Source of the DNA: Thalassoglobus polymorphus
Lineage (GTDB): Bacteria; Planctomycetota; Planctomycetia; Planctomycetales; Planctomycetaceae
NCBI RefSeq assembly: GCF_007744255.1
Contig: NZ_CP036267.1
Coordinates: forward strand, 1,985,500 to 2,049,499
Direction of reading: 5' to 3'
Length of the DNA stretch: 64,000 bases
Part shown: piece after piece, positions 20,575 through 44,746 of the stretch
How positions within the stretch are numbered: position 1 is the first letter of the stretch
How the letters are laid out: every line of letters begins with the position of its first letter
Program-made: the position numbers and the translations under genes
The notes under the pieces: model-generated
What the model was told of the DNA's origin: nothing
What the model saw: only the letters and a program-made list of their open reading frames with translations
Databases searched by the model: none

Positions 20575-20653
20575 TAGAACTGGTCCTGAAACGTGAAATT
20601 GCTCTCTCGAATGTTGAGAAAAGTGTCTATCCCGATGGTTTTCGGACTGCTTT
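20575..20653 (+). repeat. Dispersed ~79-nt structured repeat, family 1, copy A
   Basis: TAGAACTGGTCCTGAAAC..GAAATTGCTCTCTCGAATGTTGAGAAAAG...GGACTGCTTT. Shares 70-80% identity with 39985-40063 and 44668-44746, all on the same strand. Confidence 0.7.
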
Positions 20654-20694
20654 AAACAAAAAAACACCTTGCAAGCAAAGCCTGCAAGGTGAGC

Positions 20695-20783
20695 GGAGAG
20701 AGCGGGATTCGAACCCGCGGTCCCCTTTGACAGGGACACATCATTAGCAATGATGCGCATTCGGCCACTCTGCCATCTCTCCT
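20695..20783 (-). tRNA. tRNA-Ser (GCU)
   Basis: Reverse complement is GGAGAGATGGCAGAGTGG...CATCA-TTGCTAA-TGATG...long variable arm GTCCCTGTCAAAGGGGAC...GCGGGTTCGAATCCCGCTCTCTCC. Cloverleaf with anticodon GCT, long extra arm, discriminator G. Confidence 0.9.
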
Positions 20784-21168
20784 TTTGGAGCCGACACAAA
20801 AGTGTGAGTGAGGCTCCGGGGACGAAAGATAGAAGTTCCTTCGCAGAGTTTCAAGATAGAGAGCGATTTCGCTTCAAGGATTTCTCTGAGAGCCCTCAAA
20901 CTCAGTCCATATTGACGGAATTTGCCGGTATCGAATATATCTCAGCTGGAAACATTGATGTTTCGGCCTCCAAACTCCTTGCTTGCAGTGACTTTAGAAT
21001 TCCTCATGTGACTGGTGAACTCCCAAAATCGCTGAAATTGCTGTCGTTGATTCAAATGATAGTCTGCGATTTTGTTGTTGTTCGATCAGATCAAGTCCTT
21101 TTGATGTTGGGGCTTGCTTGAGGAGTGAGTTGTCGACCTGGAATGGACTTTCGGACACAACATTAGAG

Positions 21169-22356
21169 ATGCCTTTTAAAATTCCAATTTTGCAGCGATA
21201 CATCCTGTGGGAAGTGCTGCGCGTGTTTGCGTTTGTGCTCACTTGTATTACCGTTTTGCTGGTTTTCGTCGGAGTTTTTCAACAGGCGACCGAACGTGGT
21301 TTGACGCCAGCCCATGCTTTACAGGTCTTGCCGTTTGTCGTTCCACATATGCTCCCGTTCACAATTCCGGCAGCAATGTTGTTGACGGTTTCGCTGGTAT
21401 ATGGACGATTGGCAGGTGATCAGGAAGTGATTGCCGCGAAATCTGCTGGGATACATCCAGTCTCGTTGATGTTACCTGCCCTGTTTCTTGGAGCGACATT
21501 AAGTGCGGGAACGCTGGTTTTAAGCGATCAAATGATTCCGTGGTCTATGACCAAAATTGAACAGCACGCGATTTCAGTCCTGGAAGATGTTTTCATCGAG
21601 CGTTTGCGAACAGAGTTGCAATTCAGCGACCGTGGGACTGGATTACACGTGCATGTTGCTGCCGTGGACGATCGTAAACTGATACATCCGGTCTTTCGCT
21701 ACGCGAAGAATGGTCGGATCGTAACGATGCAGGCTGAAGAAGCAGAACTACGACTCGATCTCAAACGTCAAGAGGTCGTGATTGCGATGACAAACGGGTT
21801 TATTGAGTTGCCGGGCGACCATCGTGTGTTTTTTAGTGGAACGCAGGAAGAACGAATTCGCTGGGAGCGCGAGGATGAAGTCCGCAAGGCACGAGATCTT
21901 CCAATTCTCTCAATCGGAACAGAAATTGAGCAGATCGAATCGTTTCGGGAGACTCAAAAGAAGAAACGAGCCATTCAAGCATTCATGTCGATGACTGGGG
22001 CGAATTTTCAGCAACTCGTAGGGGATGTCAAAACGACCACGAAAGAGCTGAACGGCGATCGCAAACGATACAACAAGCTCAACACCGAAGTGCATAGCCG
22101 CTACGCAATGGCCTGCAGCTGCTTCTTCTTTGCACTTCTGGGAAGTCCAGTCGCCATTCGGTTTGGACAGTCTCAGTTCTTGAAGAGTTTCATGCTCTGC
22201 TTCGTTCCAATTGTGTGTGGATATTATCCGTTAATGCTCGGTTTGATGGCGCAATCCAAAAACGGTCATATTTCTCCAGTATGGTCCATGTGGATCGCGA
22301 ACTTGATTGTGATTGCGTTGTCCTGGTTTGTCATGCGGAAAGTGGTTCGATACTAA
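21169..22356 (+). CDS. LptF/LptG family permease (YjgP/YjgQ)
   Basis: Start MPFKIPILQRYILWEVLRVF is the characteristic LptF/G N-terminus. Six TM segments with a large periplasmic domain between TM3 and TM4. Confidence 0.85.
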   Translation: MPFKIPILQRYILWEVLRVFAFVLTCITVLLVFVGVFQQATERGLTPAHALQVLPFVVPHMLPFTIPAAMLLTVSLVYGRLAGDQEVIAAKSAGIHPVSLMLPALFLGATLSAGTLVLSDQMIPWSMTKIEQHAISVLEDVFIERLRTELQFSDRGTGLHVHVAAVDDRKLIHPVFRYAKNGRIVTMQAEEAELRLDLKRQEVVIAMTNGFIELPGDHRVFFSGTQEERIRWEREDEVRKARDLPILSIGTEIEQIESFRETQKKKRAIQAFMSMTGANFQQLVGDVKTTTKELNGDRKRYNKLNTEVHSRYAMACSCFFFALLGSPVAIRFGQSQFLKSFMLCFVPIVCGYYPLMLGLMAQSKNGHISPVWSMWIANLIVIALSWFVMRKVVRY

Positions 22357-22471
22357 GTGTTCGGAGATGATCTTGTTTTTCAACTGTCCTGCGGAATGTT
22401 GAATGTTCGGATCGTTGTGGCAAGTCCATATCTATCAAATAGTTACGAGTCCTTTTCTGTTTTGGAAGACG

Positions 22472-22499
22472 TTGACACACATGTTGCCCTCCCTATAAT
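22472..22499 (+). promoter_or_regulatory. sigma70-like promoter upstream of trxA (TTGACA-16 nt-TATAAT)
   Basis: Consensus -35 and -10 hexamers read directly from the sequence, about 73 nt upstream of the trxA ATG. Confidence 0.55.
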
Positions 22500-22572
22500 C
22501 CGGTAGTTCGAAGCACAAGCCAATCTCATTTGACCCAGTCTCTTTTGACTAAGCGTAATAAGGATTCAAGTC

Positions 22573-22902
22573 ATGGCAGGTAATGTAGTAGATTTTTCTG
22601 ACGCCACTTTCCAGGATGAAGTGTTGTCCAGCGATCAGCCCGTACTCGTCGATTTTTGGGCTCCCTGGTGCGGTCCGTGTAAAGCGTTGACACCTACCAT
22701 CGAAGCCCTGGCAGATGAATACGCTGGCAAAGTGAAAATTGGAAAATTGAACACTGACGAAAATCGTCAAGTGGCAATCAATTACCAGATCAACAGCATC
22801 CCGACTCTGATCGTTTTTAAAGGTGGAGAACCGGTTCAACGAATCGTTGGTGGCCCTCCAAAAGCACAACTTGCAGAAATGCTTGATGGCTTTACCGGCT
22901 AG
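22573..22902 (+). CDS. trxA: thioredoxin
   Basis: WCGPC active site. 109 aa, full-length similarity to TrxA (VLVDFWAPWCGPCK...IPTLIVFKGGEP). Confidence 0.95.
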   Translation: MAGNVVDFSDATFQDEVLSSDQPVLVDFWAPWCGPCKALTPTIEALADEYAGKVKIGKLNTDENRQVAINYQINSIPTLIVFKGGEPVQRIVGGPPKAQLAEMLDGFTG

Positions 22903-23080
22903 AGCACTTTTGAAAGATGTCCGCGAATAGTCTCGTGGAGATGGGTGATTCATCACATAGAAAGTCAGTCTTCACAGAGTTTGTTTTCACTGAGACGACA
23001 AGCATTGAAAATGCTTGACTTGGGTCTGCTCTGAGAGCAGACCGATTTCATCTTCACATGATCTCGGGGAAGGAGTCCCC

Positions 23081-25318
23081 ATGTCCGAACGAATGGAATC
23101 GTTCCCCATGAATTCTACTCAGAACTCTGACCGGCTTGAACAAGCCGGTCAGATTCTTTCTCATTTGCAGGCTCAACTCTCTGAGCTTGATCGCCGTGAG
23201 CAAAATCTGAATCAGCAAATGTCTGTGCTGATGGAACAACAACGCTCGACGCAGCAAAGCCAGGCAGTTGCGGAACGCAAGGCGAACGAATTGCGACAGG
23301 AACTTCTCGAACGCGAGCAAAAAGTTTCGGCAATCGAGAAAGAGGTCAACGAGCGTCGAACCGCAGCTGAACAACAAGAGGAGTCTGTTCGAAAGAAAGC
23401 AGACGCTCTGGAGTCTCAAAGAGCTCAGTTTGAACGCGAAATGCAGAAGAAGAGAGATGCCTTCGCTGCTGAGTGTCGCGAGAAACAAATTCGTCAACAG
23501 GCGGAACTTGCTAAAGAGTTGGAAGCATCTCGCAAGACGTTTGAAGAGGAATGCAAACAGCGCGAATCGACACTCGACGAACTGATTCGAGAACACGAAC
23601 AAGAATTCGCGGAAAAATCAGAGCGGTTCGAGAGCGAAAAAACGCGGCATCGGCAAAATGTCGAGGATTGGGCGAAGGAAAAAGTTCTCGAAAAGCAAAG
23701 ACTCCAACTCGAACGGCAAGCAAAACTGGAGCAGTTGGAAGCGGACTTCAACAACGAAGTGGCTGAGCATCAAGCGAAGATGTTACAAGAACGACATCAG
23801 CTCGATGAAGAAATTCGTTTGCATCAGCAGTCTGTCGAAGAATGGGAGACCCGACAGAAGGCCGAGAAAGAGGCCTTCGAAACTGAGATGCTGAGTCGCA
23901 CTCAGACATTCGAAACCGAGATGCTGGCGCGCACTCAGGCGTTCGAGCAGGAATCTCTTGAAAAGCAGACTCAATTCGAAGCCGAAGTTCAACGGCAACA
24001 AGAAGAAATCAAAACAGCTCGTCAAGCGTTCGAAGGGGAACAGCTGAGCCATCTCGAACAGGTAGAAGCCTGGGAACTCCAACAGGCAGCGGAAGAGAAG
24101 AAGCTCAAGGAGCAACTGAGAACTGAACGAGAAAATTTTGACGCACAATTAAAGCTGGAGAAAGAAACCTTCAATGAAGAATGTCGTGTTCTGGAAGAAG
24201 AGTTCTCACAGAAAGTTCAGATTGAGAAAGAAAATCTTCTCGAAGAACGGCGACGTCTGAAAGAAGAACTCTCTAAAGAGCTTTCCGAAGAAGCAGCTGC
24301 TTTGAAGGAAGCAAGGCGTCAACTTGAACTGGATCAGCGAGAGCAAAATCGACTGAATGAAGAATGGTCCAGTCAGCGAACAACTGAGCGTTCTCGACTA
24401 CTCGAAGAGCTTGAAGATGTGAAAAAGGAGAAGCTCGCTGCGCTCGATTTGCGTGAGAAGAATCTTCAGCGACGCGAGATCGATTTCGAGAAGCGAACTC
24501 AACTTCATGAAAGACACCTCGATCGTGTCCGGAATGATCTCAATGCAGAGTCAGCAGATTTAGAAAAGCAGCGTCAGAAGCAAAGGTTGTGGAAAGAGGA
24601 AGTTGAACGTGGGATTCGCTTACGGCTCACTCATATGAAACGTTTCCGTGACCTCGTTGGAAAGCGAGAGGACTGCCTGGAAGAAGAACAGAATCTGTTT
24701 GCGGAAACTCGTCGGACTACCGAACGTGACCTTGCTCGCTCGAAGGAACAATTTCTGGAAGAACGTCAACTGTGGTTGCAGCAACGTGCTTTGACACAAG
24801 AGCGGCTTCAGAATCAGGAGAAACGTCTCGACGAAGAGTATGCCTCACTTGTTGAGTCTCACAAACAGGTTGAAGCGCTCAGCGATGAACTGGAAGATTC
24901 ACTTCAAGAGACTTCAAAAACACCTAGCAACCAACCGGTTCAGGCATCGCGGCATCTGAATGGTTTGCTGGCAATCTTAGGGCGGCAGCGCCGTGAGGTG
25001 GAGCAGTCAATTCAACGTCTTCAAGAACGACTCATTGAGATGCGATCAGAAGGTGCCGAACTCTCTTCCTGGCTTGCTGATCAAGATCAGGTTGTCGCTG
25101 AGCGAGAACTTTCGCATCAAGAGAATCTGGAATCACTTTCAACTCGGGAGCAGGAATTCTCCGCGATTCGTGATCAATGGAACGTTGATCGACTTCAGGC
25201 GGAACATATCATTCGAGATTTGGTCACTCAATTGGAAGTGGCCCTTGATCAAATCGCGCGTTTGCAATCAGAACAAGATAAGGATGACGGATTCAGCTCG
25301 ATTTCACAGGCAGCTTAA
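23081..25318 (+). CDS. long coiled-coil protein (E/Q/R/K-rich, about 745 aa)
   Basis: Start at MSERMES, preceded by GGAAGGAG. Almost entirely heptad-like low-complexity sequence with internal repeats (FETEMLSRTQTFETEMLARTQAFEQE). Many spurious antisense ORFs overlap it. Confidence 0.75.
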   Translation: MSERMESFPMNSTQNSDRLEQAGQILSHLQAQLSELDRREQNLNQQMSVLMEQQRSTQQSQAVAERKANELRQELLEREQKVSAIEKEVNERRTAAEQQEESVRKKADALESQRAQFEREMQKKRDAFAAECREKQIRQQAELAKELEASRKTFEEECKQRESTLDELIREHEQEFAEKSERFESEKTRHRQNVEDWAKEKVLEKQRLQLERQAKLEQLEADFNNEVAEHQAKMLQERHQLDEEIRLHQQSVEEWETRQKAEKEAFETEMLSRTQTFETEMLARTQAFEQESLEKQTQFEAEVQRQQEEIKTARQAFEGEQLSHLEQVEAWELQQAAEEKKLKEQLRTERENFDAQLKLEKETFNEECRVLEEEFSQKVQIEKENLLEERRRLKEELSKELSEEAAALKEARRQLELDQREQNRLNEEWSSQRTTERSRLLEELEDVKKEKLAALDLREKNLQRREIDFEKRTQLHERHLDRVRNDLNAESADLEKQRQKQRLWKEEVERGIRLRLTHMKRFRDLVGKREDCLEEEQNLFAETRRTTERDLARSKEQFLEERQLWLQQRALTQERLQNQEKRLDEEYASLVESHKQVEALSDELEDSLQETSKTPSNQPVQASRHLNGLLAILGRQRREVEQSIQRLQERLIEMRSEGAELSSWLADQDQVVAERELSHQENLESLSTREQEFSAIRDQWNVDRLQAEHIIRDLVTQLEVALDQIARLQSEQDKDDGFSSISQAA

Positions 25319-25326
25319 ATGAGTCG

Positions 25327-28300
25327 TCAATCTCGATCCTGTGCTGCTTCGAGTTTATTGAGTAAGCGTTGATAGTTGCTCAAGCACTCCTCAATTTTGG
25401 GCTGCAGGTTCGAAATTTGTTGGTGTTGACTCATCGAGAGTTCTGTCAGCGGTTTGAGCCATTGCTGCATGAGTTCGAACTGAGACTCCAGAACTCCGTA
25501 AACCGTTTTCGGCAAACGATTGACGATTGTAATGCGCTCGTCTGACTTCGTGTTTTCGCCCTCTTCTTCGTCTACGATCTTTGGTCTGTTCTGATCCGAG
25601 GTGCTTCTCGGCTCTTCTGATCGCGCCGAATCAGGAGCAGTGGTGGTCGGAAATGTATCCGGCCATTTCATTTCAAGTGGCGGGACGCTCACATTGATGG
25701 GACGGTTCGAAAGTCGAGCAATTTGTTCCAGTCCGTCTGCCAGTTGTAAGGACATTGCACGAAGTTCTTCACGTAGGACATCCTCGTCAGGGGTGTCGCT
25801 CTGAGAATCTGACTTCGCTGAGAGGGTGGTTGCTCCCTCGTTGACTGCTTTACGAATTGAATCGAGACCATCGCTGAATGTCGTGAGTGTAGCGATCACT
25901 TGACCGACTTTGTCGTCTGATCCGATACCCCGCATTTTGATGTTCTGCTTGAACGTCCGTTTGATGTCGTCCCAACGTTCTTGCTCGCCTGCGGTGAGTG
26001 TTCCTGTCAATTCCTTAAACTTCAACAGGTTGGCTTCTGTTCCGGAGGTCAGTGTCTGAGCATCGTTCTGGTAGCTACTCTGGATCAGCGACTCGATCTC
26101 GTCGCCATTCATGACCGGCAGCACTTTCTCTGCGATACGGTTCATATTTCGATAAGAACCTTGCAGGAGAAATGGTGGCTCGGTGCGGTAATCATCATGC
26201 TGAGCCGCTGAGGTGATGTACTCCTGATTCACCCGCAGAACAACATCGCGGACTCGCATCAGTTTCATCATTGTGTCGACGAAATCGTTCAGCTCTTCCA
26301 TCGAGTAGTTGGCTTCGAAGTCGATTCCCTCAGAGGGAGCTGCGTCCCCACGCAGGGTTCGCTCCGCCATTTTTACAACGGCATACACATCCTTTTGAGA
26401 ACGAGATGCAAGTTTCCCCAGAACGGAATTCGAAGTGAGTGCGTTTTCGATATAGCTCAGTTCAAAGGCATCAGCAGTGTCGCCGATAATTTCACCGAGG
26501 TTGTAGATGTCGGCCCGATTGCTGAGCATGTCCGGGATCTGGAATTTCTCGCCGCTCTCCGTATACGGGTTTCCCGCCATCACAACGGCAACTTTTTTCC
26601 CCCGGAAATCATACGTCTGTGTTTTGCCTTTATAGACACCCTCAATTTTTCGTTGAGCATCGCACAAGCTGATAAACTTTTGCAGGAACTCGGTATGACA
26701 GTGCTGAATGTCGTCGAGATAGATGAGAACGTTGTCACCCATCTCGAAGGCCAGATTCAACTTCTCGACCTCTTCTCGTGCCCCAGCATTTGGAGCAGCT
26801 GCCGGATCGAGTGACGTCACCTCATGTCCCAATGCAGGGCCGTTGACCTTCATGAAGATGATGCCCAGACGATTGGCGATGTACTCCATCAGTGTTGTTT
26901 TTCCGTACCCAGGGGGAGAGATTAACAACAATAGACCTTGGCGATCGGTCCGTTTCCCTTCTCCAGTTGTCCCGATTTGTTTCGCGAGGTTATCCCCGAC
27001 TAACGGCAGATAGACCTGGTCGATCAATTGGTTGCGCACAAACGATGTGAGGACGCGAGGTTGGAATTCCGTGAGCTTCATCGCGTCTCGGTGTTCATCA
27101 ACCAGCTGAGATTTCAACTCATGATAGCGTTTGAAGCGAGGGATGGTCTCGCGTTCAAAAGTGCTCAAGCGATCCAGAAAGTGGTTAAATCGTAACTCAT
27201 AATTTCCGGACTGAATGACAGGGTGTGTCCCGATCATCTTGGTGAGTTTACGTTCCATCTGAGCTGCCACGACAGCCCGTTCATCGACTTGACCATCCAT
27301 GATCAGCTTGGCGATTTCTTCACGATAGTCGAAAACTTCCTCTCCGTTTCCGTAGTTCAGCAGAAAAGCTGTGGTCCAGTCACGTGCAAGTTCGAAAGAT
27401 GCCAGCGTATCGCGCTGAACCGCTTTCATCGCTTTCGTGAAACGTTCCTGCGCATCCAATCGTTTTAAGTGATCATGGAACTCACGAAACAGATCGGCTG
27501 CTGTTTGCGACACAACAAACTGGTTTCCGCGTACTCTGCGTGAATCATCGGTCAGTTCATCAAACAGATACTCAGCAGCTTCATGAACTCGCCCAGACGG
27601 GACTTCGGATGTTCCGTAGAATTCACTTTCTTCGATAAACTCGAGCAGCATCTCGCGAAGATCCGCAAGATACTCTTGTTGTTGATCCGTGCCTGGGAAG
27701 AATTGCGAGATCGTCCCGAAACCGGTTAGAACCTGCTCTTTGAGCTTTTTCGTTTTCGAATCTCCAAAGTTCCACCAGAATAAATTTGCCAAAACGCGGC
27801 TTTGTGAAGAGTACCGCAACAGTCCACAGGCGTTATCAATTTCAAGGAGTGCGTGAAGGATCTTGACGGCATCTTGATCGTGCACCCCTTTCGAGTACCC
27901 TTCCTGATAACGTGGTCCCATGAACTTCTGAACTTCGCTGAGAAGATCAACTTCGTTCATCAGCTGTTTCGCGGACTGCGGCGACGATTGGTCTTCGTAA
28001 GGATTCCACTGTCCGTTTCGTGCGGCCTGTAACATTGTGTAGGCCAGGAATTCAGCCCGGTAGACATCCTTGTTCTCGCTGACAACTTCCATCGTCCAGA
28101 CTGATTGTGTAGAGTTCAGCTCTTCGCTGTTCACCGGTTCGTAGAAGTCTGTCCCTGTCAAATGGTAATTGAGTTCCCCATCGCGAAGGACGGTCGTCAG
28201 GTCGAGGACCTGCGTGTTGACCGAGAAGCGGTGGTTGCCGAATCGGATGACGTGATCGCCATCTTCATACAGTTCCTTCTTGTCTTTCAGTTGCCGGACT

Positions 28301-30804: not shown

Positions 30805-30911
30805 TAATAATCAATATTGAAAACAGGGATTGAAGACGACTGTAAATAGAGAATGTTCTACGTGCCTACGAAATTCAGTAGTGGCGGCGATTTACTGAAT
30901 AATTCCTAAGG

Positions 30912-30940
30912 TTTTCCGGACACATCAAGTGTCCGGAAAA
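30912..30940. promoter_or_regulatory. Perfect 12-bp palindromic stem-loop in the flotillin-ATPase intergenic spacer
   Basis: TTTTCCGGACAC-ATCAA-GTGTCCGGAAAA. Begins 11 nt after the flotillin stop, within the 146-bp spacer. There is no U-tract on either strand. Confidence 0.5.
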
Positions 30941-30950
30941 CTCGCAGCGG

Positions 30951-33744: not shown

Positions 33745-33764
33745 ATGTTGCCATTATGCAACAT
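33745..33764. promoter_or_regulatory. Palindrome ATGTTGC-N6-GCAACAT in the 5' leader of the NfeD/flotillin operon
   Basis: Perfect 7-bp inverted repeat, 13-32 nt upstream of the NfeD start on the mRNA and immediately 5' of its GGAG RBS. Confidence 0.35.
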
Positions 33765-34718: not shown

Positions 34719-34776
34719 AAATCCGGAAGCCTTTCAATTGGAACAGGCTGTCGGTTGAACTTCTGACTGGAACGAG

Positions 34777-36258
<1,482 letters not shown>

Positions 36259-36428
36259 CGCGTCGACGAACTCTTAATTCTTGAGACTCAAGTAGAGCAG
36301 GAAACTCTGATCATCTCGGTCTATTCTGAGCAACCGTCCGAAGCACTCATCTGAGAAGTCTCCAGTGCTGCACTCTGAGTGCATGTCACGGTTGTTCTAC
36401 AGGGATATCGCTGCAGCTTTGGCATTCA

Positions 36429-36461
36429 TTTAGCCCCCGGATTACTCACTCGGGGGCTAAA
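36429..36461 (+). terminator. 11-bp perfect hairpin (TTTAGCCCCCG-N11-CGGGGGCTAAA) about 170 nt downstream of htrA
   Basis: Read directly from the sequence. No clean U-tract follows, so terminator function is uncertain. Confidence 0.35.
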
Positions 36462-36570
36462 TGGATGGTCATTACAATTGACAAGATCGGTAAAATCGGT
36501 AGAATCAGAACCGTCTCAGGTAGTAATTCCTCAACGTTTTCACTCTCTTTCCACATGACTGGAGAGCGAT

Positions 36571-37374
36571 GTGATGAAAGTGTGGACGGATTTCACTTCA
36601 TGTAATGAGGCTGTTTCTTTAGCGTGGCAAGCCGCTGAACGCCGCGATTTCTCTCTGGCCAACAAACAGTTTCAGGATCTCCTGCAGAGTGATTCTTCTG
36701 TTTATCTGATGCTCGAGTACGCTCAATTTCTTTTCGATTGCGTCTCGCAAAAAAATGCTACTGATTTTCTATTGGAGTCAGCTGACACGTTTCTTGGATC
36801 TTTGGACTTTAGAAATTGTTGTCTGATCTATAACCGTCTGGCAGCCTTTTACCGAGAGTCTGAAAACGCCCATCTTGCCAGGCAGTATCAGCAGTTGGCG
36901 ATCTCGAACAACTTGAAATCCGTCACGGAGCAGGATTGCTTCCATATTGATCAGACCACTCTTTTCGGGCGTGCTCATGATCACTTTTTGGACGGCGAAT
37001 TGAACGAGGCAATCACCCTGCTCTTCTCGCTCAGGGAAGGGAATGATTTCATCGCAGCAAAGGCCAATCTCCTTCTAGCTGAACTCTATTGGCAAATTGA
37101 CGACGTCGAAGCAGGACTCTTTGTGCTCGAAGAAGCGATTGGCTGGGCAACCGTCAACGAAGACTCCGTTTTGTCGCTCGCAGCATACGAATTAAAAAGC
37201 AAGTTGTCCGCTCAAAACGAAGACGATCATTCGGCGAAGGAATCGCTCGATGCGGCACTTCGAATCGCTCGCAGTTCCGGACGCTGTCGTCGACAGTTGA
37301 AACGATTAGAACAGAAGCAAAAAAGACTCAACTCGCAAATTACGCTTCGCGCGTTCCAGGCTGAATGGAATTAA
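36571..37374 (+). CDS. hypothetical helical-repeat (TPR-like) protein
   Basis: 267 aa with alpha-helical repeat character. No strong motif recognised. Confidence 0.5.
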   Translation: MMKVWTDFTSCNEAVSLAWQAAERRDFSLANKQFQDLLQSDSSVYLMLEYAQFLFDCVSQKNATDFLLESADTFLGSLDFRNCCLIYNRLAAFYRESENAHLARQYQQLAISNNLKSVTEQDCFHIDQTTLFGRAHDHFLDGELNEAITLLFSLREGNDFIAAKANLLLAELYWQIDDVEAGLFVLEEAIGWATVNEDSVLSLAAYELKSKLSAQNEDDHSAKESLDAALRIARSSGRCRRQLKRLEQKQKRLNSQITLRAFQAEWN

Positions 37375-37586
37375 AGCATTGCCAGATTCTTCAGGCCTAT
37401 CAAGCACAAGTCCGCTCAACGAAACCTTGCAGCTTCACTATGTTGATCTCTTACTGCAATGTTAATTTTGTATAGCAGTTGGAAAAAGATTTTGGTACTA
37501 CGCTCAACCCGATAGCGAGTTTTTCGTTATGCCTTATGTCGAACAGCCTGTGAATTCACGAAAGTGGTCTTCACGGGCTTGAGAAA

Positions 37587-38558
37587 CTAGGCAGCGGCTC
37601 GAGGGTTTCTGAGCAGGCGAAACTCTTCGTCTTCGATGATGTTTTGCATGCAGTGCCCGCGTTGAGTTGCCTTGAGTCGACGTTTTAGCGACCGCCGCAT
37701 CGCTGAGTGATACCCGACAGTTGTCGTAAAGAGTGTGATGAGATCGAGAAACTTTCGATCTTTGGCCAATGTCTGTTCGTACACGTAGACGTGAGCGTTG
37801 TAACCCAACCCGATGAGAGCTCCGTCGATTTCGCCGATCGGTTGATTGCTCGCTTCGATGACAAAGTCTGCACCGATGGAGATCCATTTTCTTTTAATTT
37901 TCAGGTACCACATTTTCTCAAGTCGTTCATCGAAGTAGCTGAAACTGAAAATGGAGGGGATGCGAAAAGTGCGATTGTTCTCCTGCATGTACGTCATGTA
38001 CTCGTAACCTTGCAGGTTGGTGACAAACGAAAGGATGGTTCTTTTGACGCCGAGTGAATTGTGCAACTCCCGAGTTACCATCTCCTCGACAGATCCGGTC
38101 CAGCGAATTTGCTCTCCCGTCGTTTTAAATATCTTCATCACAAGTCGACGGTTCTCGATGTCCTGTGGTCGCATTTTATTCACAGGGTCGCGTTCGAGTT
38201 GTCGTTCAAGATTCTTCTTTTGTGATTGACTGAGACGTCCGCTTCGTTTGATTTCTTTACGTAACTGAGTCTGACGGTCTGCTTGCAAGCGGTTCAGAAT
38301 GGAAGATTGTTGTGCTGCGTCCGGGTTCCAGATATCGGTACGAATTCCGACCATGTGCGACTGATTCCATTCTCCGCTTTTCATGTTCTTTTCGGAGATG
38401 GTTCCGCAGACATCCATGTTTGCACCGAACCGCTGATCCTCTGCTTTTTTCAGTTTTTGCAGCAGGTCAATGTTCGTCGGATGCAGACCCATAAAGGCCC
38501 ACATGTCGACGTATCGATGTGCGAAAGAACGTGACACTTTTGACTTTGGCCAAAACAT
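37587..38558 (-). CDS. hypothetical protein
   Basis: 323-aa ORF downstream of cdaA on the same strand after a 240-bp gap. A basic, Q/R-rich middle is followed by a beta-rich C-terminal region. No confident family assignment. Confidence 0.5.
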   Translation of the reverse strand: MFWPKSKVSRSFAHRYVDMWAFMGLHPTNIDLLQKLKKAEDQRFGANMDVCGTISEKNMKSGEWNQSHMVGIRTDIWNPDAAQQSSILNRLQADRQTQLRKEIKRSGRLSQSQKKNLERQLERDPVNKMRPQDIENRRLVMKIFKTTGEQIRWTGSVEEMVTRELHNSLGVKRTILSFVTNLQGYEYMTYMQENNRTFRIPSIFSFSYFDERLEKMWYLKIKRKWISIGADFVIEASNQPIGEIDGALIGLGYNAHVYVYEQTLAKDRKFLDLITLFTTTVGYHSAMRRSLKRRLKATQRGHCMQNIIEDEEFRLLRNPRAAA

Positions 38559-38798
38559 GTTGAAGCTTCACCACTGCCAGAGAGAATGGACGAATTCCAA
38601 AGTTTCGGTGATATCCTGCGTTCGACTTCTTTCGCAATAGCGACCGGGTGCGAACGGGTGAATCTGTCACTTCACCGGCAAAGACTGCCCTCGTACTGCC
38701 CACATGCTGTGCAAGTCGTGATCGCGACAGGCAATTTTCGCCGCCCGGAGGGTTAATTATCAAGAATGTACCCTGAAAACAGCCGATTCTCGTTGAGG

Positions 38799-39980
38799 CT
38801 ACTGCTCACTTTTTTCCCGTAACGATACGATCACTTGCCGAGGCTCAATTTGCTCGACGCTCAATTCACTCGGGATATTCTTCAAGTTTGACTCGCTCTC
38901 CCATTGAGGAAAGCGAGTCCCTTTTGCGATAGGTTTCACTTCCAGTGAGACAACTGCCGAGGCAGGTTTCAAAAGGTTGAAGGCCGGCTCTGGGCCGGAG
39001 AGTGTTAGCTCGGCAAAAGTCGGTTTCGGTTCCGCAATCTCCCAACCTTCGGGGACATTTCGGTATTCGATGGGGATCACAAAAGTGCGCTGGATCGTGT
39101 CGGTGTTGTAGGCAAATGTGAACCATAGCATCGTTGCGGTGGCGATTGACACAAGCAGCGTCACCCCGTGGTAGCGTGGGCGTCTCTTCCCGCCAGCGAA
39201 ATGTCCATCTTTAAGAGATGCTCTTAATCGGTCAGCCAGTTGCGTTGGGTCAACGACTTGCATCTCACCATCTTTAGCAATCGTAATCGTTCCGCGTTCC
39301 TCGGAGACTGCCACTACCATTGCGTCACAGCATTCTGCAAGTCCTAAGGCTGCTGCATGTCGGGTGCCGCTGCCCTGCAGTTTCTCGACTTGCCTGGAAA
39401 GTGGAAGATGGACTCCAAGCGTCGCGATTCGTTCACGTTCAATCAGAACGGCACCGTCATGACCGGGAGATTTTGGGTGGAAGATGCTCAGCAAAAGTGG
39501 CAGACTGATTTTCGCGTCCACATCGACTCCGCCCTGAATGTGACGTCCCAGTGGGTCACGCATTGGGATGACGACCAAGGCTCCAATCCGCTGACGAGCC
39601 ATGAAGATCATCGCTTCGGTTAAAGTTCCTGTCAGATTCTCTGAGGGACCGCTGACCGAAGAACGTAAGAAAAACTGCGAGGCAGCCAGTTTTTCGAAAC
39701 CGTACCGAATGTCACTTTGAAAGATCACCACAAATGTGATCAGAATTGCGATGGAACCGTACTGGTACGCCAATGTCGTAAGGTAAAGGTCAAACCATTG
39801 AGCCAGTCCGAAGAGGACAACCAACCCGACAGCCACAATTCCCAATGACCGTGAGGCTTTTTGCCGCAACCAGATGATGACGACATACAACAGCATGGAA
39901 ACGATTGCGACATCGAGCAAGTCCGCGAATCGCACGCGTTCAAACAGTTCACGAACATATTGTGGCATCGAGTCTAACAT
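38799..39980 (-). CDS. cdaA: diadenylate cyclase CdaA fused to a YbbR/CdaR-like C-terminal domain
   Basis: Three N-terminal TM helices and a DAC domain with HDGAVLIERERI, GTRHAAALGLAE and VVAVSEERGTITIA (canonical DGA / RHR-like / SEETG motifs). An extra TM and about 150 aa of YbbR-like beta-rich sequence follow at the C-terminus. Confidence 0.85.
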   Translation of the reverse strand: MLDSMPQYVRELFERVRFADLLDVAIVSMLLYVVIIWLRQKASRSLGIVAVGLVVLFGLAQWFDLYLTTLAYQYGSIAILITFVVIFQSDIRYGFEKLAASQFFLRSSVSGPSENLTGTLTEAMIFMARQRIGALVVIPMRDPLGRHIQGGVDVDAKISLPLLLSIFHPKSPGHDGAVLIERERIATLGVHLPLSRQVEKLQGSGTRHAAALGLAECCDAMVVAVSEERGTITIAKDGEMQVVDPTQLADRLRASLKDGHFAGGKRRPRYHGVTLLVSIATATMLWFTFAYNTDTIQRTFVIPIEYRNVPEGWEIAEPKPTFAELTLSGPEPAFNLLKPASAVVSLEVKPIAKGTRFPQWESESNLKNIPSELSVEQIEPRQVIVSLREKSEQ

Positions 39981-39984
39981 TTAA

Positions 39985-40063
39985 TAGAACTGGTCCTGAA
40001 ACTCGAAATTGCTCTCTCAAACGTTGAGAAAAGCGACGATTCCAGAGGTTTTCGAACTGGTTC
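39985..40063 (+). repeat. Dispersed ~79-nt structured repeat, family 1, copy B (abuts cdaA start codon, opposite strand)
   Basis: TAGAACTGGTCCTGAAACTCGAAATTGCTCTCTCAAACGTTGAGAAAAGCG...CGAACTGGTTC. The 5' GAACUGGUCC and 3' GAACUGGUUC ends pair fully if G.U wobbles are allowed. Confidence 0.7.
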
Positions 40064-40197
40064 AAAAGTACTGACGCACTTTCTGTGCCCAGGAAGAACG
40101 GCTCTCTGGTAAATGCTGAACTTCACAGGGCAGGCTTCGAACACCAATTCGAAACCCATTCGACAACAGTGAATCGCTTTCAAATTGTGGCCCAGTA

Positions 40198-40309
40198 ACA
40201 ATCGTCCCGGAAAGCAACCGTGCCAGAAAGCAACCGTGCCAGAAAACAATCGTGCCAGAAAACAATCGTGCCAGAAAACAATCGTCCCGGAAATCAACCG
40301 TGATTGTAA
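40198..40309. repeat. 16-bp tandem repeat array, about 7 copies (CAAYCGTSCCRGAAAR)
   Basis: caatcgtcccggaaag / caaccgtgccagaaag / caaccgtgccagaaaa / caatcgtgccagaaaa x2 / caatcgtcccggaaat / caaccgtgattgtaat, contiguous. Lies in the 750-bp divergent region between cdaA and the BON/CsbD cluster. Confidence 0.8.
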
Positions 40310-40730
40310 TAAGGTTCTCCCGGTGACCAATCGGATCGCACGAATAAAATATAGCCGCTTCTCGTCAGAAACGAGCCTGATCTTCTTCTGGAACTCGACT
40401 GAGACATGTGTAAACCCTTGCAGAGAAATTGCAGGGAAAGTGCAAAAACATCACATGGTCGTCATTTGAACGCGCTGGTCGTCCACGGACCAGCAATGCA
40501 TGGTCTCGCCTTTTCGAAAGTGTGATGAAACAAGTCTCCACGTGGAACTTCTCTAAATGAATCGTGCTGTCGGACTTGGTTTTTAACTCAGTAAAACTAC
40601 ATCCTCTGCGAAAACCGAGAGTGAAAGTTATCAGGATAAGAGCATCTGGCATGACGGTTGCAAAATGAATCAGGAACATCGAGTTGACGAACAGATTCGA
40701 TTATTCATTTGGTAAAAACAGGAGGCTTCT

Positions 40731-40994
40731 ATGCCAAACGCGATATCTCATGAAACATCCACCAGTAAGGATCTTGTACGACGAGTTTGTCGCGCAATCA
40801 CCGAACTTGGCTACCCAGAACATTCATCTGTGAAGTGCGAGTCCGATGGTTCCACAGTGACGCTCAATGGCAAACTTTCATCTTTCTACCTGCTGCAAAT
40901 CGCGCAGGCCATCGCCATGGAAGTGCCCGGCGTTCGAACGGTGGTCAACAAAATTGAAGTCTGTGGGAAATCGCGTAAATCTCGATGGTATTGA
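40731..40994 (+). CDS. BON domain protein (OsmY-like)
   Basis: 87 aa. VKCESDGSTVTLNGKLSSFYLLQIAQAIAMEVPGVRTVVNKIEV matches the BON domain pattern. AGGAGG RBS. Confidence 0.75.
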   Translation: MPNAISHETSTSKDLVRRVCRAITELGYPEHSSVKCESDGSTVTLNGKLSSFYLLQIAQAIAMEVPGVRTVVNKIEVCGKSRKSRWY

Positions 40995-41069
40995 AGAAAA
41001 TCGAACTATCTGTGTCTGGAATTGTGTTCAGTAGCTTAGGTGAGATTACTCATAACAAGGAGACGAAAG

Positions 41070-41273
41070 ATGAATTGGGATCAAATTCAAGGAAAGTGGA
41101 AACAAGTCAAAGGACAGGCCCAACAGAAGTGGGGCAAGCTGTCGGAGGACGACCTCGACGTCATCGATGGGAAGCGTGAGGAACTCGTCGGCAAAGTCCA
41201 AGAGCAATACGGAGTTGCTAAAGAAGAGGCAGAGAAGCAGGTCTCCGAGTTCGAAAGTTCCTGCAGCTGCTGA
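41070..41273 (+). CDS. CsbD-family general stress protein
   Basis: MNWDQIQGKWKQVKGQAQQKWGKLSEDDLDVIDGKREELVGKVQEQYG is the classic CsbD signature. AAGGAG RBS. Confidence 0.85.
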   Translation: MNWDQIQGKWKQVKGQAQQKWGKLSEDDLDVIDGKREELVGKVQEQYGVAKEEAEKQVSEFESSCSC

Positions 41274-41289
41274 GTCCATCAAACTTTTT

Positions 41290-41316
41290 CCGGGCGAGCG
41301 TTCAACGCTCGCCCGG
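41290..41316 (+). terminator. GC-rich hairpin CCGGGCGAGCG-TTCAA-CGCTCGCCCGG between csbD-like and the Cys-rich gene
   Basis: 11-bp perfect stem. Followed by a T-containing but imperfect tract (TCGCGTTTACGCTTTC), so possibly a partial terminator or attenuator. Confidence 0.5.
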
Positions 41317-41355
41317 TCGCGTTTACGCTTTCAACTATTCAGGAAGGAGAAACAA

Positions 41356-41676
41356 ATGTCAGTTCAGGATCCTTGTATTGAAGCCTGTCAAAAATGTGCA
41401 GTTGCATGTGAGAATTGCTTGAGCGAGATGCTCGATGAGCAGAGTGATAACGATTGTCCTCGCTGCTGTCGTGAGTGCATCGACCTTTGTTTGCTGTGTG
41501 CGCAAGCAGTCGCGAGAAACAGTCGATTCAGCGAAGAGATCTGCAGACTGTGCGCCGATGCCTGTGAGTGGTGTGCTGAGCAGTGTGGAGCTCATGATCA
41601 TGATCACTGCCAGAAATGCGCAGAAGCGTGCCGCGCCTGCGTCAAAAGTTGTCGAAGCATGGCTCAAGCCTCTTAG
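41356..41676 (+). CDS. Cys-rich four-helix-bundle protein (DUF326 / Csp-like copper-binding family)
   Basis: 107 aa with 18 Cys in repeated CxxxC / CxxC spacings on predicted helices (CIEACQKCAVACENC...CPRCCRECIDLCLLCAQ...CRLCADACEWCAEQC...CQKCAEACRACVKSC). No signal peptide. AGGAAGGAG RBS. Confidence 0.75.
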   Translation: MSVQDPCIEACQKCAVACENCLSEMLDEQSDNDCPRCCRECIDLCLLCAQAVARNSRFSEEICRLCADACEWCAEQCGAHDHDHCQKCAEACRACVKSCRSMAQAS

Positions 41677-41850
41677 GCATTGTCTTGTTCATGGAAATCA
41701 CTCTTAGAACTTCATCGTTGGCTTACCACGAGACCGGACATGAAGCTGCGATTGGCTTTTGTCCGCAGTGAATCGCGGCTTATGTCGTTGCTTTTGAGTT
41801 TCCCTGCTTGAACGAACTCGAACGAATTAAAACCAAAACTGGAGCAGATC

Positions 41851-43263
41851 ATGTTTGTCCTGGAAACCGTTTTGACAGACGGAATTGCACAACTCTCGTA
41901 TTTCGTCGGCGACACAGAAACCGGTCGAGCTGCAGTGATCGATCCTCGCACCGACGTTGAAATCTATGAGGAGCTTGCTCGCAAACATGGCGTTTCAATT
42001 ACTCACATTTTTGAGACCCATATTCATGCCGACTTCGTCTCGGGGAGTCTTTCACTCTCTGCCAGACTGGGCACCGCCGAGATCTGGTTAAGTGGTGAAA
42101 ATGCAGGTTACCAATTCCCCGGAAATGTCATCAGCGACGGTGAGACGTTTGATTTCGGAGGTTTTCTTCTGGTCGCGCGCCACACACCCGGTCACACGCC
42201 AGAGCATCTTTCATTTGAAATTTGTGAAGCAAAGAATCCTGATCGACCTTTTGCAATTTTCACTGGTGATTCGCTCTTTGTTGGTTCAGCGGGGCGTCCA
42301 GATTTGCTAGGCGGGGATCAGACAGAAGCTCTGAGTGAAGACCTTTATCGGACATTGTATGACTATTATCTTAAGCTGGACGACTTCGTCACGATCTATC
42401 CCGGACACGGGGCTGGTTCAGCTTGTGGTGCCGATATCGGCGATCGGCTTTGCAGCACGATTGGTTATGAGCGTCGCACAAATGCTTTCTTGAAGTTCCC
42501 GGACTTGCAGACATTTCAAGAATTCGTAATCAACGATGCTCCGCCTGTACCGTGGCACTATCCTGAGCTGAAGAAGGTGAACGCCTCCGGCCCCGAAGTG
42601 ATGGATCGGCTGCCGACCATTCGCGCACTCCCCCCGGACAAGTTTCGCAAAGTCATGCGCGAAGCCGGCGTGGTCATTCTTGACACACGCTCAATGTTGG
42701 CGTTCGGAGGAGGTCATGTCTCAGGAGCTATCAACATTGGCGATCGACCGGAGATGTCGGCATGGGTTGGGCAACTGTTCGATTTGGATCAACGGTTGTT
42801 ACTGATTGTCGATGATGACAAAGAGGTCGAGCAGGTTCAGCGTCTTATTGTCAGGACCGGCCACTCACGGTTTGCTGGTTATCTGGCAGGTGGGATGAAG
42901 GCCTGGGAAGTCGCCGGCTTACCAATGGAGTCAACACGGCAAGTCACTGTCGAGGAGCTTCGTGAAATGCAGATAAGTGAGGGTGATTTTACACTCTTGG
43001 ATGTCCGTTCACCGGCTGAGTGGGAATCAGGACGCATTCCTGGAGCTCAGCATCAGTTTATTGCCGACATGCGTGACCGAATCAGTGGGTTGGACAAGGC
43101 GGGGCGATACATCACCTATTGCGCGAGCGGATACCGAGCCAGTATTGCATCAAGTTTGATGCAATCTCGTGGATTCTCGGATGTCTCCAATGTTCCGGGT
43201 AGCTGGGGTGCTTGGAAGGCAGTTGGGTATGACATCGAAAAACCGGAGGAGGCGACAGTATGA
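41851..43263 (+). CDS. metallo-beta-lactamase-fold persulfide dioxygenase fused to two rhodanese domains (CstB-like)
   Basis: N-terminal MBL motifs (ETHIHADFVSG, HTPGHTPEH, PGHGAGSACG) and two C-terminal rhodanese modules, the second with the active-site loop YCASGYRAS. Confidence 0.85.
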   Translation: MFVLETVLTDGIAQLSYFVGDTETGRAAVIDPRTDVEIYEELARKHGVSITHIFETHIHADFVSGSLSLSARLGTAEIWLSGENAGYQFPGNVISDGETFDFGGFLLVARHTPGHTPEHLSFEICEAKNPDRPFAIFTGDSLFVGSAGRPDLLGGDQTEALSEDLYRTLYDYYLKLDDFVTIYPGHGAGSACGADIGDRLCSTIGYERRTNAFLKFPDLQTFQEFVINDAPPVPWHYPELKKVNASGPEVMDRLPTIRALPPDKFRKVMREAGVVILDTRSMLAFGGGHVSGAINIGDRPEMSAWVGQLFDLDQRLLLIVDDDKEVEQVQRLIVRTGHSRFAGYLAGGMKAWEVAGLPMESTRQVTVEELREMQISEGDFTLLDVRSPAEWESGRIPGAQHQFIADMRDRISGLDKAGRYITYCASGYRASIASSLMQSRGFSDVSNVPGSWGAWKAVGYDIEKPEEATV

Positions 43264-43820
43264 ATATGATTCTTTCAAGGCTTTCAGTGTTGGGGGAGGC
43301 AGACCCTCTGCAATATCCCGGACCGGCCTGGTCACCGTACGTCGTCGGCGCTCTGATCGGTGTTTTGTCGATGTTCACATTCTATATCTCGAACAAACCG
43401 CTGGGGGCATCGACGGCCTACGCCCGGATATCGGGAATGCTCGGAGACCTCTTTACCCCTAAACATACTCGGTCGCTGAAGTATTTTCAGGACAACCCAC
43501 CTCGTCCTGGATGGGAGTTGATGCTTGTCTTCGGGGTGATCATCGGATCGTTCTTTGCAGCATGGAGTGGAGGCGAGTTCACAGGTCAGCTGCTACCGGC
43601 AATGTGGGTAGAGCGTTTCGGTGCAGACAGCAATTTGCTGCGGATCAGTGTTGCACTTGCGGGCGGTATGCTGATGGCATTTGGTGCTCGGATGGCAGGC
43701 GGATGCACAAGTGGTCATGGCATCAGCGGGACGTTGCAGCTGGGGATCGGTTCGTGGATCGCAGCGATCTGCTTCTTTGTTGGCGGCATCATCACAGCCA
43801 TGTTGATGTTCGGCCTGTAA
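43260..43820 (+). CDS. YeeE/YedE family sulfur-compound transporter, half-size paralog 1
   Basis: Four TM helices and the signature GGCTSGHGISG. Its ATG overlaps the upstream stop (ATGA), indicating translational coupling. Confidence 0.8.
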   Translation: MNMILSRLSVLGEADPLQYPGPAWSPYVVGALIGVLSMFTFYISNKPLGASTAYARISGMLGDLFTPKHTRSLKYFQDNPPRPGWELMLVFGVIIGSFFAAWSGGEFTGQLLPAMWVERFGADSNLLRISVALAGGMLMAFGARMAGGCTSGHGISGTLQLGIGSWIAAICFFVGGIITAMLMFGL

Positions 43821-43964
43821 GAATCACTAGAGTAGTTTGCTCCACCGTGAGCCCGTGAAGAACGTATTTCTCTAGTAAAAATGCTATTCGCCACGAGACA
43901 GAACTGTTAAGGCAAATCATAAAGATTCAGTCATCCCATGAACCAAAACTGTGGAGTATCGACA

Positions 43965-44579
43965 ATGGCCACGACGCTCGAAAAAACGCAACTCGACGAA
44001 GCACCCAAAAAAGAATCAGAAGAATCGGAAAGCAGAAATCCCGCTCCGACCAAGTCGCTCGTTCAGGGGCTTCTCTTTGGAGTGGTCTTCGGATTCCTGT
44101 TGCAAAAAGGTGGAGTCGCGAAGTTCCATGTTTTAATTGGTCAACTCCTGCTCGAAGATTTTACTGTCGTGAAGGTGATGCTCTCGGCAGTTGTTGTTGG
44201 GACATTAGGGGTTCATTTAATGCATCATCTGAAGCTTGTTGAGCTACATGTTAAACCAACACGAATCGCATCGAATGTCATCGGAGGTTTGCTCTTCGGA
44301 GCTGGCTTCGCGTTGTCAGCTTACTGTCCCGGAACCGGTGCAGCTGCATTGGGGCAAGGTAATTTCGATGCACTTGCGATGGTTGCTGGCATGATCGCCG
44401 GTTCGTTCATGTTTGCAGAAGCCTCGAGCTGGATCAGTCGAAACATCGATCCGATGGGAGATCAAGGCAAGCTGACTTTACATGACATTCTGCCGTTCAA
44501 TCGGGCTGTCGTCGTCATCGGCAGCGCAGCGATCCTGGCTGTTGTATTGGCCATTCTCGAAGTGACCACGGTCCGTTAG
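43965..44579 (+). CDS. YeeE/YedE family sulfur-compound transporter, half-size paralog 2
   Basis: TM protein with AYCPGTGAAALGQG (the second-repeat YeeE motif). Start at MATTLEK is preceded by GGAG. Confidence 0.75.
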   Translation: MATTLEKTQLDEAPKKESEESESRNPAPTKSLVQGLLFGVVFGFLLQKGGVAKFHVLIGQLLLEDFTVVKVMLSAVVVGTLGVHLMHHLKLVELHVKPTRIASNVIGGLLFGAGFALSAYCPGTGAAALGQGNFDALAMVAGMIAGSFMFAEASSWISRNIDPMGDQGKLTLHDILPFNRAVVVIGSAAILAVVLAILEVTTVR

Positions 44580-44667
44580 AGCATTTCCAATGCTTCTCTT
44601 CTCCGCGAAGTACGTTTTCACAAGTTCATACGCTGATGCCACGCGACAGTACTGTTAAGACGAGTTT

Positions 44668-44746
44668 TAGAACTGATCCTGAAACCTGAACTTGTGCTCT
44701 TAAACACTGAGAAAAGTCATCATTCCACAAGTTTCCGGACTGGTTC
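44668..44746 (+). repeat. Dispersed ~79-nt structured repeat, family 1, copy C
   Basis: TAGAACTGATCCTGAAACCTGAACTTGTGCTCTTAAACACTGAGAAAAGTC...CCGGACTGGTTCC. Lies 89 nt downstream of the second yeeE-like gene. Confidence 0.7.

What the first reader, a model, noticed from the sequence alone, without database searches (positions are those of the whole stretch)
20575..44746. Family of ~79-nt structured repeats (3 copies, same strand), possibly a small RNA or miniature mobile element
Copies at 20575-20653, 39985-40063 and 44668-44746 share TAGAACTG(G/A)TCCTGAAAC..GAA.TTG.CTCT.AA...TGAGAAAAG...GTTT(T/C)CG(G/A)ACTG(G/C)TTC. In each copy the 5' end (GAACUGGUCC) and the 3' end (GAACUGGUUC, partly diverged to GGACUG.UU. 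in copies A and C) can pair over 10 bp only if two G.U wobbles are allowed. That pairing works on the + strand RNA but not on its complement. It argues for a transcribed, strand-specific RNA structure rather than DNA-level terminal inverted repeats. All copies are intergenic. Copy B abuts the cdaA start codon on the opposite strand, so it would be antisense to the cdaA leader.
Basis: seen in the sequence. Interest (0 to 1): 0.65.

Follow-up and report, generated by a model that had tools for sequence, protein, structure and literature searches.

The report
TA-inserting miniature transposon family (MITE)
The three ~80-nt repeats belong to a large family of tiny non-coding "jumping DNA" elements (MITEs) in a Thalassoglobus-like planctomycete, which insert at TA dinucleotides on either strand; they are not a strand-specific small RNA, so the finding is real but ordinary.

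Summary
The three copies exist exactly where stated, but the window holds six copies: three on + and three on -. The missed ones are D 3399-3479, F 47722-47802 and a decayed E at about 52010-52087. A related genome (Thalassoglobus sp. MAG EC21-04) carries at least 103 copies in the 524 kb I could fetch. The element has a 77-nt core with imperfect 18-nt terminal inverted repeats and is flanked by a duplicated TA.

Mobility is shown directly in two ways:
- The site upstream of cdaA is empty in the related genome, which has a single TA there.
- A second repeat family has a 10-nt centre (CTC-TA-GTAAA) in 34 copies. In 15 copies the centre is 79 nt longer, with the element inserted in either orientation.

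The RNA argument fails. Predicted folding energy is the same on both strands over 89 copies (-23.0 vs -23.3 kcal/mol, p = 0.54). There is no Rfam match and no promoter- or terminator-like site in the copies scanned. The hairpin potential follows from the inverted repeats.

Verdict: a new family of a well-known kind, a TA-duplicating MITE like RUP or Correia. It is probably moved in trans by an IS630/Tc1-mariner-type transposase, which I did not find. One open point is an orientation bias: antisense to co-directional flanking genes 34:14.

The parts
20575..20655 (+). MITE copy A: TA + 77-nt core + degenerate TA (AA). It directly abuts a copy of the second repeat family R (20485-20573, - strand) and lies about 40 nt from the terminator-like hairpin after tRNA-Ser.
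39985..40065 (+). MITE copy B: TA + 77-nt core + AA. Its 5' end is 4 nt from the ATG of the cdaA-type gene (38799-39980, - strand). The site is empty in the orthologous locus of the related genome.
44668..44748 (+). MITE copy C, of the C subfamily (CCTGAACTTGTGCTC...CACAAGTTTCC). It lies 89 nt downstream of the sulphur-transport gene 43938-44579. It is 95% identical to MAG copies L117, L112 and L051.
3399..3479 (-). It is full length with TA at both ends, 32 nt upstream of the + strand gene 3511-3960 and in the orientation opposite to it.
47722..47802 (-). It belongs to a diverged subfamily with ends TAGAACTGGTCTCAAATC / GTCTTGAGACTGCTTCTA and central hairpin TTCTCTG-ATA-CAGAGAA. It lies 30 nt upstream of the cytochrome c gene 47832-50279.
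52010..52087 (-). Decayed copy E. The 5' half (52055-52087) is significant. The 3' half is only tentatively alignable. It lies about 26 nt upstream of the ORF 52113-53108.

Best explanation
The repeats are copies of a non-autonomous miniature inverted-repeat transposable element (MITE).

Anatomy. The core is 77 nt and non-coding. Its ends are imperfect inverted repeats: 5' GAACTGRTCCTGAAAC and 3' GTTTTCGGACTGGTTC, 14 of 18 positions when the flanking TA is counted. There is a small central hairpin (CTCTCAA-ACG-TTGAGA).

Mechanism. The element inserts at a TA within a loosely palindromic W-Y-TA-R-W target, often CTAG, and duplicates that TA. This signature points to cut-and-paste mobilisation in trans by a DDE transposase of the IS630/Tc1-mariner type, or less likely an IS5-group enzyme. 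That step is inferred, because the transposase gene was not found.

History. The family has several subfamilies shared between the window's organism and a related Thalassoglobus MAG. Insertion sites differ between the two, so it moved after they diverged.

RNA folding. Any RNA that reads through a copy can fold into a long hairpin. This is a by-product of the inverted repeats and holds equally for both strands.

Effects on genes. Insertions land in short intergenic regions, often within 5-40 nt of start codons (cdaA, a cytochrome c gene and others). They may therefore alter leaders, but no such effect is shown.
For: Shown:
- Six copies in the window, 3 on + and 3 on -.
- At least 103 copies in 67 loci (524 kb) of Thalassoglobus sp. 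EC21-04 and one in another Planctomycetaceae MAG.
- Core length is 77 nt in 80 of 89 copies. TA lies on the left in 86 of 89 and on the right in 74 of 89. Flanks beyond the TA are unrelated.
- Orthologous empty site: the MAG has ...CATCTGA-TA-AAGCAC... where the window has ...CATTTAA-TA-[77 nt]-AA-AAGTAC... upstream of cdaA. Flanking DNA is 85-90% identical.
- Paralogous empty and filled sites: the centre of repeat R is 10 nt (CTCTAGTAAA) in 34 copies and 89 nt in 15 copies, which is 77 + TA longer. The insert occurs in both orientations, and one insert is from the F subfamily.
- The duplication is 2 bp, not 4. The base before the left TA and the base after the right TA vary, while the element-side bases are constant.
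- Tandem and nested copies sharing or splitting at a TA: L050 2298+2380, L098 5134-5279.
- Bacterial MITEs such as RUP, Correia and ERIC are described as under 200 bp, with TIRs, a TSD, 5'-TA-3' termini and transcripts that fold into long stem-loops. RUP is attributed to IS630-Spn1 on the basis of TA targets and TIR similarity (PMC2229807).
Against: - No autonomous element with matching ends was found. There are no IS-sized repeats in the 524 kb sampled. Inverted end pairs 0.3-4 kb apart are two MITEs or chance matches. No transposase domain appeared in 20 window ORFs. MAG assemblies often drop IS copies, and I had no complete genome.
- Orientation relative to co-directional flanking genes is not random (34 antisense, 14 sense, p = 0.0055). 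A purely neutral MITE does not predict this.
- G.T-compatible cells outnumber A.C cells in the arms (505 vs 165). This asymmetry stems from about 7 vs 3 inherited positions and does not translate into a difference in energy.
Confidence: 0.9

Rival explanations
1. A family of small structured RNA genes or cis-acting RNA elements. The + strand transcript folds into a hairpin closed by the terminal stem with G.U pairs, and copy B acts antisense to the cdaA leader.
For: - 89% of cells in a 33-pair hairpin model form standard pairs on the element's forward strand. 14 pairs show changes on both sides, against 7.2 in shuffles.
- G.T cells 505 vs A.C cells 165.
- The central hairpin is kept with different sequences in subfamilies F and E.
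- Orientation is biased relative to genes.
Against: - Both strands fold equally well: -23.0 vs -23.3 kcal/mol, 45 vs 43 copies, Wilcoxon p = 0.54.
- Window copies have unremarkable z-scores, -0.4 to -2.8, the same on both strands.
- No Rfam match at gathering thresholds, nor at E<=1 around copy B.
- No sigma-70-like promoter or intrinsic-terminator-like site in B, C or F.
- TA duplication, empty sites, and insertion in both orientations into the same host repeat.
- Covariation comes mainly from whole subfamilies and is equally expected for transposon inverted repeats.
- The forward strand is usually the non-mRNA strand.
Confidence: 0.04
2. A MITE family that has been partly co-opted. Copies next to start codons act as orientation-dependent leader or regulatory modules, as reported for Correia elements. 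Selection on these effects causes the orientation bias. This is compatible with the main explanation and adds a function to it.
For: - Antisense 34 vs sense 14 in co-directional gene pairs. A cruder gene call gives 26 vs 10.
- Four of six window copies lie 4-32 nt upstream of a start codon, all opposite in orientation to that gene.
- Correia and other MITEs are reported to carry functional motifs (PMC2229807).
Against: - No promoter- or terminator-like motif was found in the copies scanned.
- The bias could arise from insertion preference, from replication-strand effects, or from purifying selection against one orientation, without any gain of function.
- The cdaA site is empty in the sister genome, so that copy is not needed for cdaA expression.
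- My gene calls are home-made ORF and codon-usage calls.
Confidence: 0.1
3. REP/BIME-type palindromic elements spread by a RAYT (IS200/IS605-like) single-strand transposase.
For: The elements are intergenic, palindromic, abundant and orientation-biased. T.G mismatches in the arms would be tolerated in a single-stranded DNA hairpin.
Against: - REPs are 20-40 bp with a GTAG or CGTC tag at one end (PMC3733652 abstract). This element is 77 nt with GAAC/GTTC ends.
- It duplicates its TA target. To my knowledge IS200/IS605-type transposition does not do that.
- DNA-parameter folding is also the same on both strands.
Confidence: 0.02

Closest known systems
RUP (repeat unit of pneumococcus), an IS630-Spn1-associated MITE of Streptococcus pneumoniae
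   Same: Both are ~100 nt, non-coding and intergenic, with about 100 copies per genome. Both have terminal inverted repeats and insert at a TA that ends up at both termini. RUP tends to insert into other mobile elements; here the element inserts into a second repeat family (PMC2229807).
   Different: I saw no sequence similarity. The host phylum differs (Planctomycetota). This element is shorter (77-nt core). For RUP a matching IS630-family element is known, whereas none was found here.
Correia / NEMIS elements of Neisseria
   Same: Both are TA-flanked MITEs with inverted repeats and occur as several length or sequence subfamilies. Both often lie close to gene starts, and their transcripts fold into long hairpins (PMC2229807).
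   Different: Correia elements are 107-155 bp with ~24-bp TIRs and an optional IHF site. Promoter activity and RNase III processing of Correia elements are from my own knowledge and were not tested here. The scan found no promoter-like site in the copies.
IS630 / Tc1-mariner transposons
   Same: Both duplicate a TA target. The target is palindromic and often CTAG, which I know as the classical IS630 target. Here the target is W-Y-TA-R-W, and CTAG within repeat R.
   Different: This element has no transposase gene. Whether its ends match those of an IS630-family element in the same genome is unknown.
REP/BIME elements
   Same: Both are abundant intergenic palindromic repeats.
   Different: REPs are 20-40 bp, carry a GTAG or CGTC tag and make no target duplication (PMC3733652). 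These features were tested here and not met.

Membership tests
Bacterial MITE (non-autonomous DNA transposon) | Small size, too short to encode a transposase | tested here: met
   The core is 77 nt in 80 of 89 copies, or 81 nt with both TAs.
Bacterial MITE (non-autonomous DNA transposon) | Terminal inverted repeats | tested here: met
   5' TAGAACTGRTCCTGAAAC against the reverse complement of the 3' end, TAGAACCAGTCCGAAAAC, gives 14 of 18. The arms are 89% paired across 89 copies.
Bacterial MITE (non-autonomous DNA transposon) | Target-site duplication | tested here: met
   A single TA at empty sites and TA on both sides at filled sites. One orthologous pair; 34 empty vs 15 filled paralogous sites differing by exactly 79 nt; flank statistics.
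Bacterial MITE (non-autonomous DNA transposon) | Many dispersed copies, in both orientations, with insertion polymorphism | tested here: met
   6 copies in the window (3+/3-) and at least 103 in 524 kb of a related MAG. The cdaA site is filled in the window and empty in the MAG.
Bacterial MITE (non-autonomous DNA transposon) | An autonomous partner with the same ends in the same or a related genome | tested here: inconclusive
   None in the 64-kb window or the 524 kb of MAG loci.
IS630/Tc1-mariner-mobilised MITEs | Strict TA target, 2-bp duplication | tested here: met
   A 4-bp duplication is excluded because the bases outside the TA vary independently.
IS630/Tc1-mariner-mobilised MITEs | Ends recognised by an IS630-family DDE transposase | not testable with these tools
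   Needs the complete genome or a binding/transposition assay.
Structured small RNA / Rfam family | Match to a curated covariance model | tested here: not met
   Only two tRNAs in the window at gathering thresholds. Nothing at E<=1 in 39900-40400.
Structured small RNA / Rfam family | Structure specific to one strand | tested here: not met
   Mean MFE -23.0 (forward) vs -23.3 (reverse) kcal/mol over 89 copies, 45 vs 43, p = 0.54. Window copies.
Structured small RNA / Rfam family | Own promoter and terminator, and a discrete transcript | tested here: inconclusive
   No sigma-70-type promoter or intrinsic-terminator-like site in B, C or F. Planctomycete signals may differ, and no RNA-seq was available.
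REP/BIME | 20-40 bp palindrome with a GTAG/CGTC tag and no target duplication | tested here: not met
   77 nt, GAAC/GTTC ends, TA duplicated. Definition from PMC3733652.

The most novel reading that the evidence does not exclude
The MITE family is not neutral. Its strong preference for the orientation antisense to flanking co-directional genes (34:14), and its frequent position within a few tens of nt of start codons, may reflect orientation-dependent effects on expression. These could be hairpin-containing leaders, or antisense transcripts over translation start regions, including that of the c-di-AMP synthase gene cdaA. If so, part of the family has been recruited as regulatory modules in a phylum whose promoters and leaders are poorly known.
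Probability: 0.12. Interest if true: 0.45.

Novelty: new member of a known kind. Interest (0 to 1): 0.22.

Why it matters
Mainly for annotation. These repeats, and a second more abundant family found alongside them, should be masked or labelled as MITEs in Thalassoglobus-like planctomycete genomes rather than proposed as small RNA genes.

They also give a marker of recent genome dynamics, because insertion sites differ between sister species. One insertion lies 4 nt from the start codon of cdaA and is evidently tolerated.

MITEs have hardly been described in Planctomycetota. My two literature searches found no report for Thalassoglobus. The family is therefore a small addition to the catalogue, not a new principle.

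Tried and rejected
- Pairs of the end motif 1696 nt apart in three uncultured Bacilli MAGs looked like a candidate autonomous IS. They lie in fusA (EF-G) coding sequence, where the 18-mer encodes YRTDPET, so this is coincidence.
- The other non-planctomycete hits of the 18-mer in genome contigs, and all six in viral contigs, match only the 18-21 nt motif and not the element.
- Orphan end motifs in L110 and L081 are chance or decayed matches.
- Self-BLAST of 588 kb found no IS-sized repeats.
- Pfam on 20 window ORFs found no transposase.
- BLAST of the consensus against PLSDB plasmids found no match.
- The L036 and L038 copies upstream of homologous genes are not at orthologous positions, so they say nothing about ancient retention.
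- An exact-protein look-up of the cdaA product, meant to identify the source genome, found it is not on record.
- A 4-bp (YTAR, IS5-like) duplication was considered and rejected on flank statistics.
- A reading as two direct repeats of a GAAC-TG-GTYC operator 63 nt apart was considered. It was dropped once the target duplication and empty sites were seen.
Full report
**Observation**

They align without gaps at 71-83% identity over about 82 nt, and similarity stops abruptly at both ends. The 17-nt 5' motif is found 9 times with up to 3 mismatches against 1.55 expected from shuffles.

The count and strand claim is incomplete. A repeat search shows a full copy on the minus strand at 3399-3479 (D, 84% complementary to B). 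A second minus-strand copy lies at 47722-47802 (F, a diverged subfamily). A decayed one lies at about 52010-52087 (E). The window therefore holds six copies, three on each strand.

**Context**

The window comes from a planctomycete. It has a DUF1559 plus N-terminal-methylation gene and multihaem cytochromes. All copies are intergenic by ORF and codon-usage gene calls. D, E and F lie 26-32 nt upstream of + strand genes and are also opposite in orientation to them.

**Family size**

I scanned one genome per species for TAGAACTGRTCYTGARAC. About 70 loci come from a single MAG, Thalassoglobus sp. EC21-04. The rest are chance 18-mers in unrelated taxa. One example of a chance hit is the fusA coding sequence of some Bacilli.

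A profile built from the window copies finds 103 copies in those Thalassoglobus loci (524 kb), on both strands. It also finds one diverged copy in another Planctomycetaceae MAG. The window is a different but related species. Its cdaA region is 85-90% identical to locus L118.

**Anatomy**

- Across 89 distinct copies the core between the flanking dinucleotides is 77 nt in 80 cases.
- The left dinucleotide is TA in 86 copies and the right is TA in 74.
- Sequence beyond that is unrelated between copies.
- The ends are imperfect inverted repeats: TAGAACTGRTCCTGAAAC against the reverse complement of the 3' end, TAGAACCAGTCCGAAAAC.
- There is a central hairpin, CTCTCAA-ACG-TTGAGA.
- Subfamilies exist and are shared by the window and the MAG. 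Window B, C and D are 94-95% identical to MAG copies. In the F subfamily both arms and the central hairpin have changed together.

**Mobility**

Two independent comparisons show insertion with duplication of a TA.

- Orthologous site. The cdaA upstream region of the MAG reads CATCTGA-TA-AAGCAC. The window reads CATTTAA-TA-[77 nt]-AA-AAGTAC. Both flanks are well conserved.
- Paralogous sites. Many copies sit inside another repeat, R. Its centre is the 10-mer CTC-TA-GTAAA in 34 copies and an 89-mer in 15 copies. The 89-mer is exactly 77 + 2 nt longer. The element occurs there in either orientation, and once as the F subfamily.

The duplication is 2 bp, not 4. The base before the left TA and the base after the right TA vary freely, while the element-side bases are fixed. 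The target consensus is a loose palindrome, W-Y-TA-R-W. Tandem and nested copies join at a TA (L050, L098).

**The RNA argument**

- A 33-pair hairpin model is 89% paired on the forward strand, and some pairs change on both sides. Those changes come largely from whole subfamilies. The tool itself warns that related sequences exceed the shuffles without any structure.
- G.T-compatible cells outnumber A.C cells (505 vs 165). They derive from about seven versus three inherited positions.
- Predicted stability does not differ between strands. Over 89 copies the mean is -23.0 vs -23.3 kcal/mol. The forward strand is more stable in 45 copies and the reverse in 43 (Wilcoxon p = 0.54). DNA parameters give the same result.
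- The window copies have ordinary z-scores on both strands.
- Rfam gives only two tRNAs in the window, and nothing at E<=1 around B.
- A consensus scan puts no promoter- or terminator-like site in B, C or F.

A published review of bacterial MITEs lists the same properties. They are under 200 bp, with TIRs, a TSD, TA termini and transcripts that fold into long stem-loops (PMC2229807). The hairpin is therefore expected and says nothing about a dedicated RNA function.

**Mechanism**

Shown: a non-coding 77-nt element with inverted ends that inserts at TA, duplicates it, exists in over 100 copies, and has moved since two sister species split.

Inferred: trans-mobilisation by a DDE transposase of the IS630/Tc1-mariner type. 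TA duplication and a CTAG-like target are that family's signature, by my knowledge and by the RUP precedent in PMC2229807.

I could not find the enzyme or a full-length element. There are no IS-sized repeats in the sample. Inverted end pairs are two MITEs or chance. No transposase domains appeared in 20 window ORFs. MAGs often lack IS copies, so this absence is weak evidence.

**An unexplained feature**

Where both neighbouring genes run the same way, the element's forward strand is antisense to them in 34 cases and sense in 14 (p = 0.0055). A cruder gene call gives 26 vs 10.

It could reflect selection on one orientation, an insertion bias, or a replication-strand effect. I cannot separate these without a closed genome.

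**Comparison and verdict**

The element meets every tested defining feature of a bacterial MITE. It shares the TA-target signature of RUP and Correia. It fails the tests for REP elements and for a strand-specific RNA.

I found no description of MITEs in Thalassoglobus. It is therefore a new family of a known kind. Interest is low to modest.

Noticed in passing
window 43830-43917 (+), 20485-20573 (-), 1841-1925 (-); weaker 40084-40151 (+), 19358-19401 (+), 37525-37578 (-): A second, more abundant repeat family 'R' of about 108 nt: TA-GAGCAGTTTGCTCTACCGTGTGCCCGTGAAGAACGCATTTCTCTAGTAAAAATGCTGTTCGCCACGAGGCAGAACCTGCAAACCAATTCGAAAGATGCTC-TA. It has short inverted ends TAGAGCA/TGCTCTA and TA at both termini. 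Tandem copies share the TA. It gave 125 profile hits in 588 kb. It looks like another TA-targeting MITE and is a favoured landing site for the element studied here, at its central CTAG and at its terminal TA. No empty-site test was done for R itself.
   Followed up: partly
window 40181-40324: A tandem array of a 16-nt unit (AACAATCGTGCCAGAA and variants, about 7-9 units) between copy B and the next gene. A 96-nt block of it is absent from the orthologous locus of the related MAG.
   Followed up: partly
window about 40410-40441: A 32-nt segment GTGTAAACCCTTGCAGAGAAATTGCAGGGAAA containing a hairpin (CCCTTGCA / TGCAGGG). It is present in the window and absent from the orthologous MAG locus. It may be another small insertion or deletion.
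   Followed up: no
L118 2952-3082 versus window 38799 and leftwards: Synteny between the window and the related MAG ends right after the cdaA stop codon. At that point the MAG carries a copy of repeat R, suggesting a rearrangement at a repeat.
   Followed up: no
L036 about 1580-1663 (Planctomycetaceae bacterium ABC1.68): A diverged relative of the element in another genus-level MAG. Its inner inverted repeat is nearly perfect (CCTGAAACCC / GGGTTTCAGG). It is not at the position orthologous to the copy near the homologous gene in L038.
   Followed up: partly
window 20655-20782: tRNA-Ser(GCT) on the - strand (20693-20782) is followed by a terminator-like hairpin (CCTTGCAGGCTTTGCTTGCAAGG plus a T run, 20655-20690). 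Copy A and a copy of R come directly after it.
   Followed up: no
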